This document shows positions 3,816-48,526 of a DNA stretch of 64,000 nucleotides, one piece after another. The notes under the pieces are model-generated. The model did no database searches. It saw only the letters and a list, made by a program, of their open reading frames with translations, and had not been told where the DNA came from. The DNA lies in the UHGV virus genome UHGV-0124283, one strand, 5' to 3'. How positions within the stretch are numbered: the first letter of the stretch is position 1; every line of letters begins with the position of its first letter. The DNA comes from a virus. A program made the position numbers and the translations under genes.

Positions 3816-4260
3816 GTTTAAGCGTTTTGAAGACCGGCTGACCGGACTGATTGAGTCGCTGTCACCGTCAGGGCGTCGGCGACTGAGTGCCGAACTGGCG
3901 AAACGTCTGCGGCAGAGTCAGCAGCGTCGGGTGATGGCTCAGAAAGCCCCGGACGGCACACCCTACGCGCCACGCCAGCAGCAGAGCGCCAGAAAAAAGA
4001 CTGGTCGTGTTAAGCGAAAAATGTTTGCGAAACTTATCACCAGTCGTTTTTTGCATATCCGCGCCAGCCCGGAACAGGCATCAATGGAGTTTTACGGCGG
4101 GAAGTCACCGAAAATCGCCAGTGTGCATCAGTTCGGTCTGTCGGAAGAAACCCGGAAAGACGGTAAGAAAATTGATTATCCGGCGCGTCCTCTGCTCGGT
4201 TTTACCGGTGAGGATGTGCAGATGATTGAAGAGATTATCCTGGCTCACCTTGAGCGTTAG
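3808..4260 (+). CDS. S: tail completion protein S
   Basis: 150 aa, P2 gpS-like translation and position. Confidence 0.8.
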   Translation: MNEFKRFEDRLTGLIESLSPSGRRRLSAELAKRLRQSQQRRVMAQKAPDGTPYAPRQQQSARKKTGRVKRKMFAKLITSRFLHIRASPEQASMEFYGGKSPKIASVHQFGLSEETRKDGKKIDYPARPLLGFTGEDVQMIEEIILAHLER

Positions 4261-41767: not shown

Positions 41768-42665
41768 GCACTGGAAAAATATTACTATTTATAAACTTTC
41801 TCGTGAGGCGGATCTGACCGACTTAGAAGATAAAAAGAAAATGATCCTTTTCACGCCATGCGGTAGTCAGGATATGGCCAAGTTCGGTTTTGTATCGCCA
41901 TTTGGTGATAATTCCGAAGTTATCGCTATGCATGGAAATGGTTTTATCCTTGTTGAAGCAAAGCGCGAAACAAAAATTCTTCCCCCGCCGGTTATCCAGC
42001 GAGCTATTCAAGAAAAAATTGAAAAACTTGAGCAAGAACAAGCGCGTAAACTGAAGAAAACAGAGAAGGACTCCCTGAAAGACGAAGTTCTGCATTCTCT
42101 TCTGCCACGGGCTTTTTCAAAGTTTTCTGTTATCCAGGCGATCTACGACGGTTCAACTAAACGTATCTATATCAATGCCAGCGCGCGGCAGGCAGAGGAT
42201 ATGCTCGCGCTTATGCGTAAGTCTCTGGGTTCTCTTCCTGTTGTGCCACTAAGTGTTGAAAATCCCATTGAGTTAACGCTGACCGACTGGGTACGTGATG
42301 CTAGTGCTCCACAGGGATTTCAAATGGGGGATGCGGCAGAACTTAAGGCAGTGCTTGAGGATGGCGGTATCGCCCGAGTGAAAAAGCAGGATTTGGGAAG
42401 CGATGAAATTTCCACACACCTGGAAGCTGGCAAGCTCGTCACTAAGTTGGCACTCGACTGGCAGAACCGCATTAAATTTACACTGGACCATAACTTCAGC
42501 ATTACCAGCGTCAATTTTGCGGATGAATTGCTTGAGCAGAACTCTGATATTGATAGTGAAGATGTTGCGCAGCGACTGGACGCAGATTTCTTCCTATTGA
42601 CCAGTGAAATTTCGTGCCTGGTTGATGCTCTGGTAAATGCCCTTGGTGGAGAGGCTAAGCAGTGA
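41760..42665 (+). CDS. hrdC: RdgC-like recombination-associated protein
   Basis: 302 aa from ATG 41760 ([13 protein letters not shown]...); RdgC family resemblance. Confidence 0.65.
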
Positions 42666-45600
42666 AAGAGCTGTGCTATGGATCTGTTTGCAGTGGAATT
42701 GAAGCCGCGAGTATTGCCTGGGAACCGTTGGGTATGCGTCCGGTTTGGTTTGCTGAAATCGAGCCTTTTCCATCGGCCGTTCTTGCGCTCCGCTGGCCCC
42801 ATGTCGCCAACCTTGGCGACATGACAAAACTTGCCAAAAAAGTCTTGGCTGGGGAAATCGAATCCCCTGACGTGCTCGTCGGGGGAACACCATGTTTTAC
42901 CGCGGGGCATATGGTTCTTTGTAAAAATGGTTATAAACCAATAGAAGATGTTTGCCCTGGCGATTACGTAGTCAGTCATCTCGGGCGGTTACAACAAGTA
43001 AAAAGAGTTGGTTCAAAAATAGCTAATACGGGGTTACTTAATGCCGTTGGGCAGCCTTTAGGTATAAGAACAACCAATGACCATCCCTTCCTGGCTGTTC
43101 GGTGGAAAGCCCAAAACACCCGGAAAAATGGCACATATTTTAAGAGAGAGTTGTTGTCTGAACCGGAATGGCGAGCAGCATGTGATATGCCGGGATATCA
43201 ATGGTGCGCTCTAACTAATTTCAATATTGCATCTCCAGATATTTGTTCTCGGTTCTTGTCTGAAGAACAGGCTATGTATCTTGCGGGCGCTTATGTTGGC
43301 GATGGATATATTAGGAGATGGAGAGGTAAATCTAAGAAGGCGGTTGTTTTTGGCATAAATTGCCAGAAATTGAGAAAGTTTCATTGCCGCATACCAGAAA
43401 ACATATTTTCCGTGGCAAGCGAAATCCGAGGGAGCATCAAAGTAACCTTGAATGATACGTGTTATGCCAATTGGCTTAATGAACATTTTGGCGAGTTAAG
43501 CCATGCTAAGCGTATCCCTGCATGGGTGATGTCGCATCCATTGCGTCATGTGTTTTTACAAGGCTATCTTGATACTGATGGGACACCAAGTGGTAAAGCG
43601 GGATTTAGAATTAATAGTGTTAGTCCTGCGCTTGCTTGGGGCGTTGCGGGGTTGTCACAGACTTGTGGTTATGTTTCTTCGGTCAGCTTTATTGAAGTTG
43701 AGCCCAAAAAAGTGATCGAGGATCGCGTGGTAAATCAACGGAATTATTATCAGGTAACAATCTGCCCGCAGAAATTGTCACGTAAATCAAGATTGGCTCA
43801 TGGAATGCTTTTACGAACAGTCAAAGAGTTTAAATCGGTAGGCCTAGATACTGTATACAACATAGAAGTCGAAGGTGATCATTCCTATATCCTCAATGGT
43901 GCGGTGGTCCATAACTGTCAGGCATTCAGTATCGCGGGATTACGTGGTGGGCTTGATGATGAGCGTGGCGCGCTAACTTTAAAGTATGTGGAGCTTGCAA
44001 ATGCAATTGACGACAAACGGGCTGAGTCATTTCTCAAACCAGCCGTTATTGTCTGGGAAAATGTCCCAGGAGTCTTGTCATCGGCAGATAACGCCTTCGG
44101 ATGTTTCCTTGCCGGATTGGCTGGAGAAGATGCGCCATTTGAACCAGGTGATCGACCTGAATCAGGAAAAAGTAACGCGTTCTGGCGGTGGGATGGCAAA
44201 ACCGGTTGCCATGCTCCAAAGTGGCAGCAGTGTGGTTGTATTTATGGGCCGCAGCGAAAGGTGGCCTGGAGAATCCTTGATGCCCAATACTTCGGAGTGG
44301 CACAACGACGCCGACGCGTGTTTGTTGTCGCAAGTGCTCGAACAGACCTCGATCCCGCAACGGTACTTTTTGAGTTCGAAGGCGTGCGCCGGGATATTGC
44401 GCCGAGCAGAGGCGAGGGGAAGGAAACTACCAGATATACTTCAAACATCGCTATCAGATCTTGCGATGATACAAACATAGTTGCCATGGCACATGGGCAA
44501 GGAGGGGCTGAGATAAAAACCGATAATTCGGCACCAACTTTAACATGTAACCATGAAGCACCAATTGTATTGCTCGGCGACGGTAGAATACGCCGTCTTA
44601 CCCCTGTCGAATGTGAAAGGCTGCAAGGTTTTCCTGATGGGCATACGTTGATCCCTACGGAAAAGCGTAAAAAAGTTTCTTCAGATGAACTGGCATACCT
44701 TCGCAATAACTATCCTGATTTAAGCGAAGAAGAGGCCGCGATGCTTGCAGCTGACGGACCGCGTTACAAAGCGATCGGCAATAGTATGGCAATACCAGTA
44801 ATGCGCTGGATTGGCGATCGGATTACTAAGGCCGTATGTCGGCAGAAAGAAGGAAGTGAAACAAAAGAGCGAAAAGTTAAACCAGCGGCAGAATTCGAAC
44901 GGTCCATATTCAAATGGGCTGGTGGAAAATTTGGTGTTCTGGAACAAATCTTTCGCTATTTGCCAGAAGGGAAGCGCCTGATTGAACCTTTCGTTGGTGG
45001 CGGAGCTGTCTTCATGAATGCCGGATACCAGGAAAATCTGCTAAATGATGTGAATGCTGACCTGATTAACTTTTACAAGACTCTGCAACGCGAGGCGCAT
45101 TCACTTATCACTCTGGCACATCGTTTCTTCCAGGACTACAACACACAGGAAGGATACCTGGCAGTACGGAATGCGTTTAACAAACAAGTCTATGATGATT
45201 TACATCGCGCAGCGGCGTTTTTGTTCCTGAACCGACATTGTTTTAACGGATTGACGCGTTACAACCAGGCCGGTGAGTTCAATGTCGGTTATGGGAAGTA
45301 TAAAACTCCGTATTTCCCATTACAGGAGATGGAAGCCTTCCTCGGTGCGGAAGGGCGGTCTGAGTTTGTATGCGGTGATTTTGCAGCGGTGATTGAAGCT
45401 GCCGGAGAAGGAGATGTCATCTTTTGCGATCCGCCGTATGAACCGCTTCCAAATACAGAGGGATTCACGAACTATTCCGGTCATGACTTTAAGTTTGAAG
45501 AGCAAAAACGCCTGGTGTCTCTGTTGACGGATGCTCATCGTCGAGGTGCAAAGGTTCTCATTACTAACAGTGGCGCGCCAAACATCAGAGAGCTTTATCA

Positions 45601-45703
45601 TGACAGTGGCTTCAGAGTGGAACCTCTTTTTGCCAGACGTTCTGTGTCTTGTAAGGGGGACACTCGAGGTGTAGCTCATGACGTTTTGGGTATATTGCTC
45701 TAA
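42662..45703 (+). CDS. dmt: bifunctional DNA methyltransferase (N-terminal C5-cytosine, C-terminal Dam-like N6-adenine) interrupted by an intein
   Basis: GTG start overlapping hrdC stop; C5 motifs GGTP-[intein]-[22 protein letters not shown]; Dam-like C-terminus with DPPY. Confidence 0.8.
42893..43915 (+). mobile_element. intein (341 aa) with LAGLIDADG homing-endonuclease domain at the PCQ catalytic motif
   Basis: N-terminal Cys ([13 protein letters not shown]), TxxH block (TNDHPF), two LAGLIDADG motifs ([21 protein letters not shown]), C-terminal ...[21 protein letters not shown] then Cys+1; removal restores [12 protein letters not shown]. Confidence 0.75.
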
Positions 45704-45710
45704 TAAATTT
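45694..45710 (+). promoter_or_regulatory. C1 operator overlapping dmt stop codon
   Basis: ATTGCTCTAATAAATTT, exact consensus. Confidence 0.6.
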
Positions 45711-45883
45711 ATTAGTGTAATATCGCCTCGATGAATCGTGATTTATAGAGCGATTTAGCTGTTAGCCGCGACAGGCGCGGCGGTAAGCATGGCTGGGCCT
45801 AGTCCTCCCAGACAAACCACCGAGTTGCCAGGTTGACCATGCGCCTAAGTGGCAACGCCGAAGTGCGTTACGAGCTTCCAGTT

Positions 45884-45910
45884 TGCCCATCTTCGGGTGG
45901 GCGTTTTTTT
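45884..45910 (+). terminator. rho-independent terminator
   Basis: gccca-tcttcgg-gtgggc then GTTTTTTT. Confidence 0.55.
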
Positions 45911-46375
45911 CAGGGTTTTCGTCATGGTTAGCGACTTTGCGGCGGTTTAGAAACTGACCATTAAAGTAAATGCAAACGATGATCTGATGATGGTAGCGGC
46001 CTAAGAAGCCAGATGCCACGGGGTATGAGTCGTCCCCCGTCAAAAAATCGACCGCAGAGTGTCCCCGTCTGTGTATTAGGGAACGGGGAGGCACAACAGG
46101 TAAGGGCGCTGGTGTGATTAACCAGATGAACGAGAAGGGGCCATCTGTTGGTCAGCGTCCTTTCCTGTTGCGTTTTCTTTTCAGCGTAACAGCGGTGCTT
46201 AACAGCACTTTGGGTACAGTTCCACGAATTTACGGGTATATCCCGTCATGCTGAAGGCGCTAATCACGCTGGAAGCCAGGGTTGTGCATCCCCTGTTACC
46301 GAATTGCAGCTAGGGCGAGGTGCGCCGAAAAGCATACGGAGGTGGAAGCCCTCGCCGGAGACGTACCCGGCAAGT

Positions 46376-46451
46376 GATGGTGTAGCTCAGCGGTTAGAGC
46401 GGTTGACTGTTAATCAACGGGTCGATGGTTCAAATCCATTCACCATCGCCA
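46376..46451 (+). tRNA. tRNA-Asn (anticodon GTT)
   Basis: Hand-folded cloverleaf: acceptor gatggtg/caccatc, D arm gctc..gagc, anticodon stem gttga/tcaac with loop CTGTTAA, T loop TTCAAAT, CCA encoded. Confidence 0.85.
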
Positions 46452-46453
46452 AT

Positions 46454-46529
46454 GCCGGTTTAGCTCAGTTGGTAGAGCGCCTGCCTTGTAAGCAGGATGT
46501 CAGCGGTTCGAGTCCGTTAATCGGCACCA
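46454..46529 (+). tRNA. tRNA-Thr (anticodon TGT)
   Basis: Hand-folded: acceptor gccggtt/aatcggc, anticodon stem cctgc/gcagg with loop CTTGTAA, T loop TTCGAGT, CCA encoded. Confidence 0.85.
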
Positions 46530-47335
46530 GCACAACAGGTAAGGGTATTTTGCGACGTCGGAGATCGCCGAGCTTGGCAGAGGGTTCGAATCCCTACGAA
46601 GTACCCTTACCGTTGTGATGAATGCGCAGGCTGATGCGCGAAAGACATTGCAGCTATTGCGGAAAAGAGCTGTTCGGCGGGGCAATTAAACGCCCGTGAG
46701 AGTCTGAAATAACCGCAAGCCGGAGATCAGCACCGGTCATCACAACACAACAGGTAAGGGCATTCTCCCTTATGGAGCTTGGCTTAAATGCATCGAGTGC
46801 TCTTACCGTTGTGATGAAGTGCAGCTCTTTGAAGCAACCAGAAGATAAGCATCTGGCTTCACAACATAAACCGCAGGAACGACCAATAAACGGTAGTCCG
46901 TATGGAGAACACCCCGTTGAGGAAGAGGCCTGGCCGGAACCGTAACCGGCACTACAACGTTGAGAACACTGGCGTAACGGGGTCATATCCCAATCTACGA
47001 ATAAATGTTGCGTTGCAGCGTGACAACCAGTGTTCTCAACATTGTGGTGAATGCACAGGCTGATGTGCCGCAACTACAGTAGTGCGCGCTTTGCGGGGCT
47101 TGCTACAACCCTGTGTCGGAGTTCAGCACCGACCATCACAGTTTGATTCTCTGGCATGAGCATAACGCTGAAATAAGTCCAGTCTGGTGCGGCCCGATCA
47201 CCCGCCGTTAGCTCCACGAAACGGAGCACGTAACAGGTAAGAGCATTCTCCTGTAACGGGTTCATATCCCAATCTACAGGTCCACCAAGAATGCTCTTTC
47301 CGTTGCGGTGAATGCGGCTAAGCGCACGCGGGGAA
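46530..47335 (+). repeat. array of four ~100-110-bp tRNA-like hairpin repeat units
   Basis: Units at ~46530-46640, 46745-46826, 46957-47072, 47228-47333 share ACAACAGGTAAGRGCA...CTTACCGTTG long stem with internal T-arm-like hairpin, followed by GTGATGAATGC-CAGGCTGATG-GC hairpin; no anticodon arm. Confidence 0.45.
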
Positions 47336-47421
47336 ATGGTTATATCAGTCCATTCATTTCTCCTTGTTTCCCCGTCCACGGTGGATAACCAGCCAAAGGA
47401 CACCGGGAGGAACCCGGCACC

Positions 47422-47438
47422 GCAATCTAATAAATATG
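47422..47438 (+). promoter_or_regulatory. degenerate C1-operator-like site upstream of tciA-ban operon
   Basis: GCAATCTAATAAATATG, partial match. Confidence 0.3.
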
Positions 47439-47461
47439 TCACTTTTATTGAGGGATAACCA

Positions 47462-47896
47462 ATGTTCGGTAAATTGTTCGGCAAGAAAGTCGCTTCTGCA
47501 AAAGTAGAGCTGAAAAAAGTTGAGAATCGCGATCTGATGGAGGCCATTATCGGTGGCTGTTTGTTGGTGTCTGCCGCTGATGGTGAAATCGAAAAAGAAG
47601 AAACAGCGAAACTTGATCAGCTTGTCCGCTCTAATCCGCGTCTTAGTCATTTTGGTAACGAAATTACTGCAACAATTACCCGCTTTACCGAGCAACTGGA
47701 AGCTGGCTTCCGTGTTGGTCGCATGAATATCCTTCGCGAAATTGAAGATATCAAAAACGATCCAAAAGAAGCGGAAGAAGTATTCGTTAACATGCTGACA
47801 ATTGCAGAAGCGGACGGTGAAATCGAGCCAGCAGAACACAAAGTACTGGAAGAAGTAGGCCGTCGTTTAGGTCTTCGTGTGGAAGATTATCTGTAA
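47462..47896 (+). CDS. tciA: TerB-like protein
   Basis: 144 aa with duplicated AADGEIE / EADGEIE acidic motifs. Confidence 0.6.
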   Translation: MFGKLFGKKVASAKVELKKVENRDLMEAIIGGCLLVSAADGEIEKEETAKLDQLVRSNPRLSHFGNEITATITRFTEQLEAGFRVGRMNILREIEDIKNDPKEAEEVFVNMLTIAEADGEIEPAEHKVLEEVGRRLGLRVEDYL

Positions 47897-48060
47897 TGGC
47901 AAGCAAGGCACGTATCGCAATCGCCATTGGTTTTCTCTTGCTGTCCGTGCTGGTGGATTTCACCAGCACAATCCTGTCAGTTTTATCGGACGGGGCGTTG
48001 GTGGCAGTAGCTGTAACATTGGTATGGCCGATATTTAAAACAGCTTCGAAGGATCAGTGA
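47896..48060 (+). CDS. small membrane protein
   Basis: 54 aa, ATG overlaps tciA stop; hydrophobic IAIAIGFLLLSVLVDF (below ORF-track cutoff). Confidence 0.35.
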   Translation: MASKARIAIAIGFLLLSVLVDFTSTILSVLSDGALVAVAVTLVWPIFKTASKDQ

Positions 48061-48167
48061 TGGGCTTCTGGGATTTTGCTGACAAGTATCCAATTGTTCT
48101 CATTATTATTGTTGCCATAGTTGTAGGCGGCATTGTTAGCGCCATTGAAGCACTTAGTAAACAGTAA
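48060..48167 (+). CDS. small membrane protein
   Basis: 35 aa MGFWDFADKYPIVLIIIVAIVVGGIVSAIEALSKQ; ATG overlaps previous stop. Confidence 0.35.
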   Translation: MGFWDFADKYPIVLIIIVAIVVGGIVSAIEALSKQ

Positions 48168-48170
48168 TCC

Positions 48171-48246
48171 GGCCCCTTAGCTCAGTGGTTAGAGCTGGCG
48201 ACTCATAATCGCACGGTCACCGGTTCAAGTCCGGTAGGGGCCACCA
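48171..48246 (+). tRNA. tRNA with CAT anticodon (Met or lysidine-type Ile)
   Basis: Hand-folded: acceptor ggcccct/aggggcc, D arm gctc..gagc, anticodon loop CTCATAA, T loop TTCAAGT, CCA encoded. Confidence 0.8.
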
Positions 48247-48526
48247 TATTTGGTTGTAACACGGCGTCTGGCACATGCGTCGTTAGCGGTCTGGTGACGT
48301 TAAAGGGGTAACCTTTCCCCTAGCTCAGGCAACAAACCAGGTAGCCGGAATGTGCAAGCCCCGTTCATAGCGTCGGACTGCGGATTCACCATCTTGGCGA
48401 TTCGGTGTGACAGCCGGGAAGAGTCCGGCGAATTAATCCTGATTTTCTGGTGATGACTCATATCGTTAGGAGTGATTTGAGTATGCCGATTATATCTGAC
48501 ATTCAGCACGCCTGGGTGGAGTGCTA

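What the first reader, a model, noticed from the sequence alone, without database searches (positions are those of the whole stretch)
46090..47340. Array of tRNA-like hairpin repeats downstream of tRNA-Asn and tRNA-Thr
After the two canonical tRNAs there is no convincing ORF for ~900 bp. Instead there are at least four imperfect ~100-110-bp repeat units, each with a long 15-19-bp stem (ACAACAGGTAAGRGCA... paired with ...CTTACCGTTG) enclosing a T-arm-like hairpin (agggttcgaatccct in unit 1), and each followed by a short hairpin GTGATGAATGC-CAGGCTGATG-GC. The first unit folds like a tRNA lacking an anticodon arm. These could be degenerate tRNA genes, RNase P-processed small RNAs (P1-type phages use RNase P for c4 maturation), or structured spacers. 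Only short spurious minus-strand ORFs overlap them.
Basis: seen in the sequence. Interest (0 to 1): 0.5.

Follow-up and report, generated by a model that had tools for sequence, protein, structure and literature searches.

The report
Phage P1 RNA-processing hairpin family
The stretch after two tRNA genes of phage P1 is not protein-coding: it holds five copies of a long RNA hairpin, widespread but unannotated in temperate phages of enteric bacteria, that most likely marks where RNase III cuts a long transcript into tRNAs, small RNAs and mRNA.

Summary
The window is phage P1, and the finding lies in the untranslated leader of the C1-controlled ban operon (promoter, dicF-like RNA, tRNA-Asn, tRNA-Thr, hairpins, tciA). 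There are five + strand hairpin units (U0-U4), not four. Each has a 19-23 bp stem with a fixed geometry: 6-7 bp, a 1-nt bulge, 2 bp, a 1x1 mismatch, then at least 10 bp.

They belong to a large family with about 100 distinct copies in the phage contigs fetched. It matches 207 phage records and occurs in 27 species genomes, nearly all Enterobacterales. Stem bases are conserved, upper stems covary and the caps are hypervariable. Every tRNA found within 600 nt is on the same strand (120 of 120). No Rfam family and no paper searched covers it.

A model built only from phage copies also finds a member in E. coli K-12 prophage Qin. That member sits where the published RNase III cut that makes the 190-nt DicF precursor maps by my arithmetic. 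So the best reading is RNase III processing hairpins (confidence 0.55).

About one cap in five carries a tRNA-arm mimic. U1 has a T arm. U3 and U4 have an initiator-tRNA-like anticodon arm. The annotated P1 genes plp and upl over this region are probably not real.

The parts
45694..45723 (+). C1 operator Oban (Op72) and promoters P1ban/P2ban. This is the start of the transcript that carries everything below.
   Evidence: Transferred from the annotation of NC_005856.1 (L001 1279-1324; offset 44399). The sequence ctaataaatttattag is seen.
45818..45919 (+). The 'dicF-like region' of the P1 annotation. It is homologous to the segment just upstream of dicF in prophage Qin and ends in an intrinsic terminator (stem 45884-45903 plus a T run).
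   Evidence: No Rfam DicF match at E up to 10.
46092..46172 (+). Unit U0, a diverged long hairpin. The usual bulged A is paired to an inserted U, and no conserved hairpin follows it.
   Evidence: CM R1 20.8 bits, E 3.4e-4. Fold z -4.4.
46354..46371 (+). Small hairpin GCCGG-AGACGUAC-CCGGC, 4 nt before tRNA-Asn. It is one copy of the H1-type hairpin that precedes tRNAs, units and tciA.
   Evidence: Direct repeats D2 and D9; read.
46376..46451 (+). tRNA-Asn (GTT)
   Evidence: 72.7 bits.
46454..46529 (+). tRNA-Thr (TGT). Its encoded CCA end is 1 nt from the stem of U1.
   Evidence: 72.9 bits.
46531..46617 (+). Unit U1. Long stem CACAAC-A-GGUAAGGGUA / UACCCUUACC-GUUGUG. The cap has an acceptor-like 7-bp stem and a canonical T arm (46581-46595, AGGG-UUCGAAU-CCCU).
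   Evidence: CM 41.8 bits, E 2.6e-9. Fold -50.2 kcal/mol, z -5.1. nhmmer 3.8e-12.
46612..46746 (+). Inter-unit domain S1. Closing stem GUUGUGAUGA/UCAUCACAAC; hairpin H2 at 46624-46639 (loop GGCUGA); hairpin H1 at 46719-46737 (loop AGAUCAGCA). The two loops are complementary (GCUGA/UCAGC). The domain is 98% identical to lambdoid and Stx phages and absent from the P1 reference genome.
46746..46813 (+). Unit U2, with a short 26-nt cap and no tRNA-like motif.
   Evidence: CM 53.4 bits, E 3.8e-12. Fold z -3.3.
46838..46865 (+). H1-like hairpin CCAGAAGAUAAGCAUCUGG followed by CUUCACAAC.
   Evidence: Direct repeat family D2.
46933..46950 (+). Hairpin GCCGG-AACCGUAA-CCGGC that abuts U3. The same hairpin type precedes units in phage IME207 and in other contigs.
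46950..47049 (+). Unit U3. 23-nt arms that have covaried away from the consensus (GUUGAGAACACUGG/CCAGUGUUCUCAAC). The cap is a three-way junction whose first hairpin (46973-46999) is GGG-GUCAUAU-CCC, an initiator-tRNA-like anticodon arm.
   Evidence: Inverted repeat I1, 91% over 23 nt. Fold -55.6 kcal/mol, z -6.7. CM 33.7 bits. Motif.
47053..47133 (+). Domain S3. H2 at 47053-47068 (GCACA-GGCUGA-UGUGC, stem compensated relative to S1) and H1 at 47115-47133 (loop AGUUCAGCA).
47211..47227 (+). Hairpin GCUCC-ACGAAAC-GGAGC just before U4. It recurs before many units in other phages.
47229..47307 (+). Unit U4. Stem with a bulged A and a U.U mismatch. The cap hairpin at 47251-47279 is GGG-UUCAUAU-CCC (anticodon-arm-like).
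   Evidence: CM 54 bits, E 2.6e-12. Fold z -4.4. Motif.
47304..47424 (+). STnc100-like structured leader of tciA. Outer stem UGCGGUG/CACCGCA encloses two inner hairpins (GCGGCUAAGCGC-type and CCGGGAGGAACCCGG). It is below the Rfam cut-off.
   Evidence: RF02076 33.9 bits against a gathering score of 47. Fold z -2.6.
47462..47896 (+). tciA (TerB family), the first protein gene of the transcript.
   Evidence: Pfam TerB 2e-14; annotation.

Best explanation
The units are RNase III-type processing hairpins in the long untranslated leader of the P1 ban operon. Transcription from the C1-repressed Pban promoter makes one RNA that carries a dicF-like RNA, two tRNAs, several structured domains, tciABC, a third tRNA and ban. 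Each unit folds as it is made into a helix of about 22 bp with a fixed geometry. Host RNase III cuts the upper helix. This cuts the transcript into separate pieces: the tRNA block (tRNA-Thr ends 1 nt before U1), the inter-unit domains, and the STnc100-like tciA leader with its mRNA. It also releases the hairpin cap.

All units share the same lower-stem sequence. So the 5' end left by one cut (..CC-GUUGUGRUG) is complementary to the 3' end left by the next (CAYCACAAC-A-GG..). Each released piece could therefore close on itself.

Shown here: the structure, its strand, its conservation and covariation, its link to tRNAs, and its family membership with the Qin hairpin.

Taken from the literature: the rnc-dependent cut in Qin.

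Inferred: that this cut lies in the Qin hairpin (by size arithmetic), cleavage of the P1 copies, re-closure of the pieces, and any role for the caps.
For: 1. Helix size suits the enzyme. The stems are 19-23 bp, and RNase III accommodates about 22 bp of dsRNA (PMC6212723).

2. Selection acts on pairing. In 91 distinct copies, 91.6% of cells pair, against 33-60% with slid partners. 15 of 24 pairs change on both sides (124 cells), and 0 of 500 shuffles reach the observed values.

3. The RNA is read from the + strand. There are 145 G.U cells against 28 A.C cells. CM scores are 21-54 bits on + against 12-20 bits on -. All 120 tRNAs within 600 nt are co-oriented.

4. Geometry is conserved: a 1-nt bulge (A in 70 of 91) and a 1x1 mismatch (unpaired in 61 of 91) at fixed positions.

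5. There is an experimental anchor. The CM built only from phage copies finds E. coli K-12 Qin at L128 4168-4270 (22.9 bits, E 7e-5; - strand 2.7 bits) with the same geometry. The 190-nt DicF precursor disappears without RNase III, and primer extension maps its 5' end to an RNase III cut (10.1101/2023.04.14.536235, citing Faubladier 1990). Counting 190 nt back from the DicF 3' end (L128 4435) gives 4246, inside the 3' strand of that helix (4239-4258).

6. The contexts are leaders of long polycistronic transcripts: after the CI-like repressor gene and PL, after Q genes and the tR' terminator, in tRNA clusters, and in the P1 ban leader.
Against: - No cleavage data exist for P1 or for any phage copy.
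- The Qin cut is placed by arithmetic from a gel-sized 190-nt species, so it is good to only a few nucleotides.
- A plain RNase III site would not need such a conserved stem base, a conserved 3' tail (GUGAAU in 79 of 91) or a conserved following hairpin.
- It would not explain why caps are enriched for tRNA-arm mimics. Processing may therefore be only part of the function.
- U0 and the Qin copy lack the conserved 3' tail.
Confidence: 0.55

Rival explanations
1. The units are display scaffolds. The long stem presents a variable cap that acts as a decoy or sponge for host factors that recognise tRNA arms. Candidates are tRNA-cleaving toxins or defence nucleases, modification enzymes and initiation factors. 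This could coexist with RNase III release of the cap.
For: - 9 of 87 distinct caps hold a 4-bp stem with a UUCRANN loop (0.16 expected). 10 of 87 hold GGG-NUCAUAN-CCC (0 in 500 shuffles).
- The lambdoid version CGGGCUCAUAACCC is identical over 14 nt to the E. coli tRNAfMet anticodon arm, including the three G-C pairs that are the hallmark of initiator tRNA (the hallmark is from established knowledge).
- The closing stem of that hairpin covaries: CGUA/UACG, CUGUA/UACAG, CCGGA/UCCGG, GCGUG/CACGC, CCUGAUG/CAUCAGG.
- T arms sit directly against the 3' strand of the long stem, as a T arm sits on an acceptor stem in a tRNA.
- The units sit in tRNA clusters.
Against: - About 78% of caps have no tRNA-like motif, and caps range from about 20 to 170 nt with no shared sequence.
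- U2, which scores 53.4 bits, has a 26-nt cap with no such motif.
- No partner protein is identified.
- The motifs could be relics of tRNA genes recombined into the units.
Confidence: 0.15
2. The units protect the long untranslated transcript from premature termination. They would act either like rrn or lambda boxA elements that load NusB and S10, or like the HK022 put RNAs that act on RNA polymerase.
For: - The consensus 3' strand reads UGCUCUUU, identical to the core of rrn boxA as I recall it, and is followed by GU-rich GUUGUGGUG.
- The units lie in 0.7-1.7 kb untranslated leaders, where Rho would be expected to act.
- In mEp460 and Stx2a WGPS2 they sit where nutL or putL would be. The first downstream ORF has no Pfam match, so no N-like protein was recognised.
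Against: - The boxA-like bases are buried in a helix of about 20 bp.
- They are replaced, with compensation, in several copies (CAAAGCGAUCCCC, CCAGUAAUCUUUCC, GAUUUGGCUUUCC).
- HK022, the reference phage for put, has no unit.
- Many units lie just after tR' in late leaders, where Q already makes polymerase termination-resistant.
- In P1 the only strong terminator (45884-45910) lies upstream of all the units.
Confidence: 0.08
3. The units act at the DNA level, as miniature inverted-repeat elements or as conserved linker sequences that promote mosaic recombination. They would have no RNA function.
For: - P1 isolates differ by whole modules whose junctions lie inside the conserved arms. The P1 reference lacks U2 and S1. 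P7 lacks U1. P7 and D6 carry another cap and an extra tRNA.
- Arms are nearly identical among unrelated phages, and S1 is 98% identical between P1 and lambdoid phages.
Against: - Strand asymmetry: 145 G.U against 28 A.C.
- Strict co-orientation with tRNAs, 120 of 120.
- The conserved tail and hairpin lie on the 3' side only.
- Compensatory changes preserve pairing rather than sequence.
- The bulge and mismatch are conserved.
- No target-site duplications were seen by eye. Recombination at the arms is expected for any repeat.
Confidence: 0.07
4. The units are decaying tRNA pseudogenes with no present function.
For: - U1 has an acceptor-like stem and a T arm but lacks the D and anticodon arms.
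- Relatives carry real tRNAs at neighbouring positions: Tyr in Ro157c2YLVW, and a Ser-like tRNA in P7 and D6.
Against: - About 100 distinct copies keep the same stem geometry through compensatory change, across phages of at least three families of Enterobacterales.
- The most conserved parts (stem base, tail, H2) are not tRNA parts.
- No intact tRNA was seen inside a unit.
Confidence: 0.05
5. The region encodes the minus-strand proteins Plp and Upl, as annotated in the P1 reference genome.
For: The ORFs exist in NC_005856.1 and were given predicted promoters there.
Against: - The Plp frame is split over two or three frames in this window, P7 and Ro157c2YLVW.
- Upl has no match in P7 or D6.
- Neither protein has a Pfam match.
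- Plp even matches its own opposite strand, an artefact of palindromic DNA.
Confidence: 0.02

Closest known systems
The RNase III site upstream of DicF in the dicBF operon of E. coli K-12 prophage Qin (Faubladier, Cam and Bouche 1990; Ragunathan et al., bioRxiv 10.1101/2023.04.14.536235)
   Same: The hairpin has the same geometry (7 bp, 1-nt bulge, 2 bp, 1x1 mismatch, 10 bp) and is found by the family model at 22.9 bits. It is also a repressor-controlled early operon with a long non-coding stretch. The P1 dicF-like region and the P7/D6 tciA leader are homologous to its flanks.
   Different: The published work treats it as a single processing site, not as one member of a family. The Qin copy lacks the GUGAAU tail and the H2 hairpin. 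Cleavage has been shown only there.
RNase III processing hairpins of phage polycistronic transcripts (T7 early sites R1-R5, the lambda N leader) and the rRNA processing stalks
   Same: These are long imperfect helices between functional RNAs in one transcript. Internal loops or bulges shape the cut. As in the rRNA stalks, conserved strands flank a variable payload. This comparison rests on established knowledge and was not tested here.
   Different: No sequence relation. Here the stem base, tail and partner hairpin are conserved across unrelated phages, and the payload is a small, hypervariable cap that is often tRNA-arm-like.
STnc100 / PasD prophage small RNAs (Rfam RF02076; Zhu, Shabalina and Storz, bioRxiv 10.64898/2026.05.13.724894)
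   Same: The segment right after U4 (47304-47424) aligns to STnc100 model positions 31-147, including its outer stem and two inner hairpins. It precedes a TerB gene, and that preprint notes TerB genes as neighbours of the Pas sRNAs.
   Different: The score is below the gathering cut-off (33.9 against 47). That model does not cover the long hairpin units. In P1 the segment has no terminator and serves as the tciA leader.
Stable RNAs (species 1 and 2) in the tRNA gene cluster of phage T4
   Same: They are non-tRNA structured RNAs encoded among phage tRNA genes, with partial tRNA likeness and unknown function. This is recalled from the literature and was not tested here.
   Different: No sequence relation. 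The T4 RNAs are processed like tRNAs. They are not long RNase III-type helices and are not a repeated scaffold.
Bacterial Y RNA-like RNAs (YrlA, RF02553)
   Same: The concept is similar: a long stem formed by the two ends, plus a tRNA-like module that lacks an anticodon arm.
   Different: The only Rfam YrlA match in the region (23.4 bits against a cut-off of 69) overlaps the two real tRNAs, not the units. From my own knowledge, most of these hosts lack the Ro (Rsr) partner protein.

Membership tests
tRNA genes (Rfam RF00005 / ARAGORN) | Cloverleaf with a 7-bp acceptor stem and D, anticodon and T arms; score at or above 29 bits | tested here: not met
   Only the three real tRNAs are called. No unit appears even at E up to 10.
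RNase III processing hairpins | Intramolecular helix of about two turns (about 20-22 bp) that the enzyme can hold | tested here: met
   19-23 bp stems in U0-U4. 19 modelled pairs conserved in 91 copies. Size requirement from PMC6212723.
RNase III processing hairpins | rnc-dependent cleavage of both strands, leaving 2-nt 3' overhangs | not testable with these tools
   The evidence is indirect. The Qin family member coincides with a published rnc-dependent 5' end. The position was derived by arithmetic.
The hairpin family defined here (model R1) | Match to the covariance model on the transcribed strand, with the bulge and mismatch geometry | tested here: met
   U4 54 bits, U2 53.4, U1 41.8, U3 33.7, U0 20.8. 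The minus strand scores lower at all five loci. The model contains close P1-like copies, so the scores for U1-U4 are not independent. The Qin hit is independent.
STnc100 (RF02076) | Bit score at or above the gathering score of 47 | tested here: not met
   33.9 bits for 47304-47424, a partial match to model positions 31-147.
DicF sRNA (Rfam) | Match to the DicF model in the annotated dicF-like region | tested here: not met
   No DicF match at E up to 10 in 45000-48500. The region is homologous to the sequence upstream of dicF, not to DicF itself.
HK022-type put antiterminator RNAs | Sequence or structure relation to the put sites of HK022 | tested here: not met
   The 3'-module HMM finds nothing in HK022 20000-40751 (best E 1.6). 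The put sites were not located explicitly.
boxA / nut sites | Accessible single-stranded boxA consensus that stays conserved | tested here: not met
   UGCUCUUU is present in the consensus but lies in the helix and is replaced with compensation in several copies.
MITE / REP-like DNA palindromes | Occurrence in either orientation; symmetry of the two arms at the DNA level | tested here: not met
   120 of 120 neighbouring tRNAs are co-oriented. 145 G.U against 28 A.C. The conserved tail is one-sided.
Y RNA-like (YrlA, RF02553) | Score at or above 69 bits | tested here: not met
   23.4 bits, and that match lies over the real tRNAs.

The most novel reading that the evidence does not exclude
The hairpins are a modular display-and-release system. 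RNase III frees the caps, and many of these are mimics of tRNA arms, notably the initiator-tRNA anticodon arm in U3 and U4 and in lambdoid phages. The freed caps would titrate host tRNA-directed nucleases or defence toxins, or components of translation initiation. The pieces between the units would re-close through their shared sticky ends into stable small RNAs, held by a kissing-loop pair.
Probability: 0.12. Interest if true: 0.85.

Novelty: new variant of a known kind. Interest (0 to 1): 0.55.

Why it matters
- P1 is a textbook phage, yet about 1 kb of its ban operon is annotated as two minus-strand genes (plp, upl) that are probably not genes.
- The same unannotated RNA element sits in the early and late leaders of lambdoid and Shiga-toxin phages. 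Part of it, the S1 domain, occurs in 896 of 5,426 complete E. coli genomes.
- It ties a 35-year-old single observation, the RNase III cut that makes the DicF precursor, to a family with a defined geometry.
- That gives a testable rule for how temperate phages split long transcripts into tRNAs, small RNAs and mRNAs.
- The tRNA-arm mimics in the caps and the covarying loop-loop pair are concrete handles for experiments on phage-host RNA biology.
- A curated covariance model would improve phage and prophage annotation.

Tried and rejected
- **Tandem repeat:** TRF finds none. The copies are dispersed.
- **Known RNA family:** Rfam at E up to 10 on the region, and at gathering score on 16 related loci (122 kb), gives only tRNAs, a sub-threshold STnc100 match, and unrelated C4, isrK and isrJ.
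- **Literature by sequence string:** no paper holds the conserved strings. Searches on the P1 ban operon and on the P1 transcriptome with noncoding RNA, and on mimics of the initiator-tRNA anticodon stem in prophages, found nothing that describes these hairpins.
- **Protein-coding plp/upl:** rejected.
- **A complete unit in K-12 DLP12 or the rest of Qin**, so that published RNase III maps could be used: none with the 3'-module HMM. The Qin copy was then found by eye and confirmed with the CM.
- **Exact RNase III coordinates:** the supplements of PMC6212723 are not held, and PMC5371410 has no detail on dicF.
- **put-like antiterminator:** HK022 has no copy.
- **boxA idea:** weakened by covariation.
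- **My first regular-expression scan for units** was too strict and found only U4. It was replaced by an nhmmer profile plus duplex folding.
- **My crude ORF calls** around the units include spurious antisense ORFs. The strand counts for flanking genes (83 same, 36 opposite downstream) are only rough.
- **Not used:** protein-homology and structure-prediction tools, because the finding is non-coding.
Full report
**Where this is**

The window is phage P1. Bases 45900-47500 are 99.9% identical to OP279344.1 and 99% identical to the reference genome, apart from one indel. Transferring the reference annotation places the finding in the leader of the ban operon, in this order:
- the C1 operator and Pban promoters, about 45694-45723;
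- a 'dicF-like region', 45818-45919, ending in a strong intrinsic terminator;
- tRNA-Asn and tRNA-Thr;
- the interval in question;
- tciA (47462), tciB, tciC, a third tRNA, and ban.

Everything is on the + strand. The reference annotates two minus-strand genes, plp and upl, over the interval.

**Checking the observation**

ARAGORN and Rfam confirm the two tRNAs. No + strand ORF of any weight lies between 46530 and 47461.

Repeat and fold analysis confirm four long hairpins after the tRNAs:

| Unit | Coordinates |
|---|---|
| U1 | 46531-46617 |
| U2 | 46746-46813 |
| U3 | 46950-47049 |
| U4 | 47229-47307 |

A fifth unit, U0 (46092-46172), lies before the tRNAs.

Each of the five folds well below its shuffles (z -3.3 to -6.7). 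U1-U4, which were also folded on the - strand, are each more stable on the + strand.

They are not tandem. Other structured modules lie between them.

**A large family**

Blastn finds parts of the interval in 207 phage records, from Klebsiella, Escherichia, Salmonella, Citrobacter, Cronobacter and Shigella. The spacer between U1 and U2 occurs in 896 of 5,426 complete E. coli genomes. It is annotated only rarely, and never as an RNA, in the records listed.

An exact-pattern scan of viral contigs, followed by an nhmmer profile of the 3' module and duplex folding, gave 163 hits. Nearly all have a complementary 5' arm. They reduce to about 100 distinct units.

The consensus, from 5' to 3', is:
1. 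an upstream small hairpin or a terminator;
2. CACAAC-A-GG-U-AAGAGCAUUG;
3. a cap of about 20-170 nt with no common sequence;
4. CAGUGCUCUU-U-CC-GUUGUG;
5. GUGAAU;
6. GCGCA-GGCUGA-UGCGC.

A scan of one genome per species found the motif in 27 species. These are Enterobacteriaceae, Erwiniaceae and Yersiniaceae, plus four odd records that may be contaminants.

**Structure is under selection, on the + strand**

I cut out the caps and aligned 91 distinct copies (A1).

| Measure | Result |
|---|---|
| Cells that pair, named structure | 91.6% |
| Cells that pair, partner slid by 1-3 columns | 33-60% |
| Pairs changed on both sides | 15 of 24 (124 cells) |
| Shuffles reaching any measure | 0 of 500 |
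| G.U cells against A.C cells | 145 against 28 |

The opposite strand would therefore pair much worse.

A 1-nt bulge (A in 70 of 91 copies) and a 1x1 mismatch (unpaired in 61 of 91, mostly U.U) sit at fixed positions.

A covariance model built from A1 finds exactly five + strand copies in 12 kb of the window. They score 54, 53.4, 41.8, 33.7 and 20.8 bits, against 12-20 bits on the minus strand.

**Context**

Of 139 distinct contexts, 56 have a tRNA within 600 nt. All 120 such tRNAs are on the unit's strand. In P1, tRNA-Thr ends 1 nt before U1. In P7 and D6 an extra Ser-like tRNA ends right at a unit.

In lambdoid phages the units occupy several kinds of place:
- the leader of about 700 nt between the CI-like repressor gene (with the PL operators) and the first PL gene, as in mEp460 and Stx2a WGPS2;
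- the late leader. Several clusters of upstream neighbours look like Q antiterminators by eye, though I did not run them against Pfam. Many units start within about 10 nt of a terminator that matches tR' of HK022;
- positions just before tRNA clusters.

P1 relatives differ by whole modules whose junctions fall in the conserved arms.

**Not protein-coding**

The Plp frame is split between frames in this window, in P7 and in Ro157c2YLVW. Upl has no match in P7 or D6. Neither has a Pfam domain.

**The link to RNase III**

Downstream of dicF in E. coli K-12 there is a remnant of the unit's 3' tail. It continues into a leader homologous to the P7/D6 tciA leader.

Upstream of dicF I found a hairpin at L128 4172-4258: CCAUAAC-G-CG-A-AAGCGCAUGG ... 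CCGUGCGCUU-C-CG-GUUGUGG. This is the family's geometry. The model built only from phage copies detects it at 22.9 bits (E 7e-5), against 2.7 bits on the other strand.

The published evidence is as follows (10.1101/2023.04.14.536235, citing Faubladier et al. 1990):
- the 190-nt DicF precursor disappears in a strain lacking RNase III;
- primer extension maps its 5' end to an RNase III cut.

Counting 190 nt back from the DicF 3' end (L128 4435) gives 4246. That lies inside the 3' strand of this helix, about 3 nt above the mismatch. The position is my arithmetic from a gel-sized species, not a read-off of their figure.

RNase III holds about 22 bp of dsRNA (PMC6212723), which is the length of these stems.

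I therefore take the units to be RNase III processing hairpins. Cleavage of the P1 copies is inferred, not shown.

**What lies between the units**

The 137-nt piece after U1 (46611-46747; domain S1, 46612-46746 in the parts list) is 98% identical in lambdoid and Stx phages. In isolation it folds with a closing stem, GUUGUGAUGA/UCAUCACAAC, around hairpins H2 and H1.

The H2 loop (GCUGA) is complementary to the H1 loop (UCAGC):
- UCAGC occurs within 160 nt downstream of H2 in 75 of 92 contexts, against 6-25 for seven control pentamers.
- 62 contexts have it in a CCGG...CCGG hairpin loop.
- Two contexts carry GUCGA with UCGAC.
- P7 carries ACUGA with UCAGU.

This suggests a kissing-loop pair.

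The strand GUUGUG can pair either back into its own unit or forward to the next CACAAC. Because all units share this lower stem, pieces released by two cuts would have complementary ends. That is an inference.

The segment after U4 aligns to Rfam STnc100 below its threshold, with the same logic of an outer stem and inner hairpins. A 2026 preprint links STnc100 and PasD RNAs to TerB genes in prophages.

**The caps**

Most caps share nothing. However, 9 of 87 distinct caps hold a T-arm-like hairpin (0.16 expected), and 10 of 87 hold GGG-NUCAUAN-CCC (none in 500 shuffles).

The second motif is what U3 and U4 carry. In lambdoid copies it reads CGGGCUCAUAACCC, identical over 14 nt to the anticodon arm of E. 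coli initiator tRNA. Its closing stem covaries.

So tRNA likeness is real but not universal. It may reflect origin from tRNA fragments or a decoy role. I cannot tell which.

**Rivals considered**

| Rival | Confidence | Main reason it ranks low |
|---|---|---|
| Decoy scaffold | 0.15 | May coexist with processing; most caps lack a tRNA-like motif |
| Antitermination or anti-Rho | 0.08 | UGCUCUUU matches the rrn boxA core, but it is buried in the helix and covaries away; HK022 has no copy |
| DNA-level palindromes or recombination linkers | 0.07 | Contradicted by strand asymmetry and strict orientation |
| tRNA pseudogenes | 0.05 | Contradicted by selection on parts that are not tRNA parts |
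| plp/upl coding | 0.02 | Frames broken or absent in relatives; no Pfam match |

**Novelty and score**

RNase III hairpins in phage transcripts are a known kind, and one member (Qin) has been studied as a single site. What is new:
- the family itself, with its fixed geometry and hypervariable, often tRNA-arm-like caps;
- its partner domains, with a covarying loop-loop pair;
- its presence in P1 under two doubtful gene annotations.

No Rfam model covers it, and no paper in the library holds its sequence. I rate it a new variant of a known kind, with interest 0.55.

Noticed in passing
window 42662-45703 (+): The Dmt methyltransferase ORF is 1013 aa here against 754 aa in the P1 reference. The extra part carries Hint and LAGLIDADG domains (aa 77-126 and 298-361), starts CFTAGH and ends VVHNC. 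It looks like an intein with a homing endonuclease, inserted in the C5-methylase half.
   Followed up: partly
window 46624-46639 with 46719-46737; 47053-47068 with 47115-47133: The loop of the hairpin after a unit (GGCUGA) is complementary to the loop of the hairpin before the next unit (AGAUCAGCA). Across phages the pair covaries (GUCGA with UCGAC; ACUGA with UCAGU in P7). UCAGC lies downstream in 75 of 92 contexts. This suggests a kissing-loop tertiary contact.
   Followed up: partly
window 46973-46999 and 47251-47279; L005 about 2713-2745: The cap hairpins of U3 and U4 carry GGG-NUCAUAU-CCC. The lambdoid version CGGGCUCAUAACCC equals the E. coli tRNAfMet anticodon arm over 14 nt, including the three G-C pairs typical of initiator tRNA.
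   Followed up: partly
window 45818-45919: A strong intrinsic terminator (45884-45910) sits about 190 nt after Pban, ahead of the tRNAs, tciABC and ban. Expression of the whole operon therefore needs readthrough. The annotated 'dicF-like region' is homologous to the sequence upstream of dicF in Qin, not to DicF itself.
   Followed up: partly
window 47304-47424: The tciA leader gives a sub-threshold match to the prophage sRNA family STnc100 (33.9 bits against 47). Its outer stem is formed by the tail of U4 and the sequence after the last small hairpin.
   Followed up: partly
window 46611-46811 compared with L001, L004, L003, L002: P1-like phages are polymorphic for whole modules. The P1 reference lacks U2 and the 137-nt domain. 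P7 lacks U1. P7 and D6 have a different last cap and an extra 87-nt Ser-like tRNA. Ro157c2YLVW has an extra tRNA-Tyr and a 129-nt ORF insertion. Junctions lie in the conserved arms.
   Followed up: partly
L128 4446-4598 (E. coli K-12, dicB leader): UGAAUUUUGUGAUG just after the DicF terminator pairs with CAUCACAAAAUUCA just before the dicB ribosome-binding site (14 bp). The stem encloses a domain homologous to the P7/D6 tciA leader. Fold -52.6 kcal/mol, z -4.1.
   Followed up: partly
window 48171-48246: ARAGORN calls tRNA-Met (CAT). The P1 annotation names it tRNA-Ile2 (trnI, ileX-like), which would need lysidine modification.
   Followed up: no
L127 1415-1603; L005 82-158: The lambdoid phages that carry the units also have C4-antisense-like and isrK RNAs, in or next to the gene annotated as a putative antirepressor. 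This is a P1/P7-type immunity module inside lambdoid phages.
   Followed up: no
L136, L137, L139, L143: The unit motif also occurs in contigs labelled Martelella, Geobacteraceae, Acidobacteriota and Marinobacterium. These may be contaminating enterobacterial phage DNA in those assemblies, but this was not checked.
   Followed up: no
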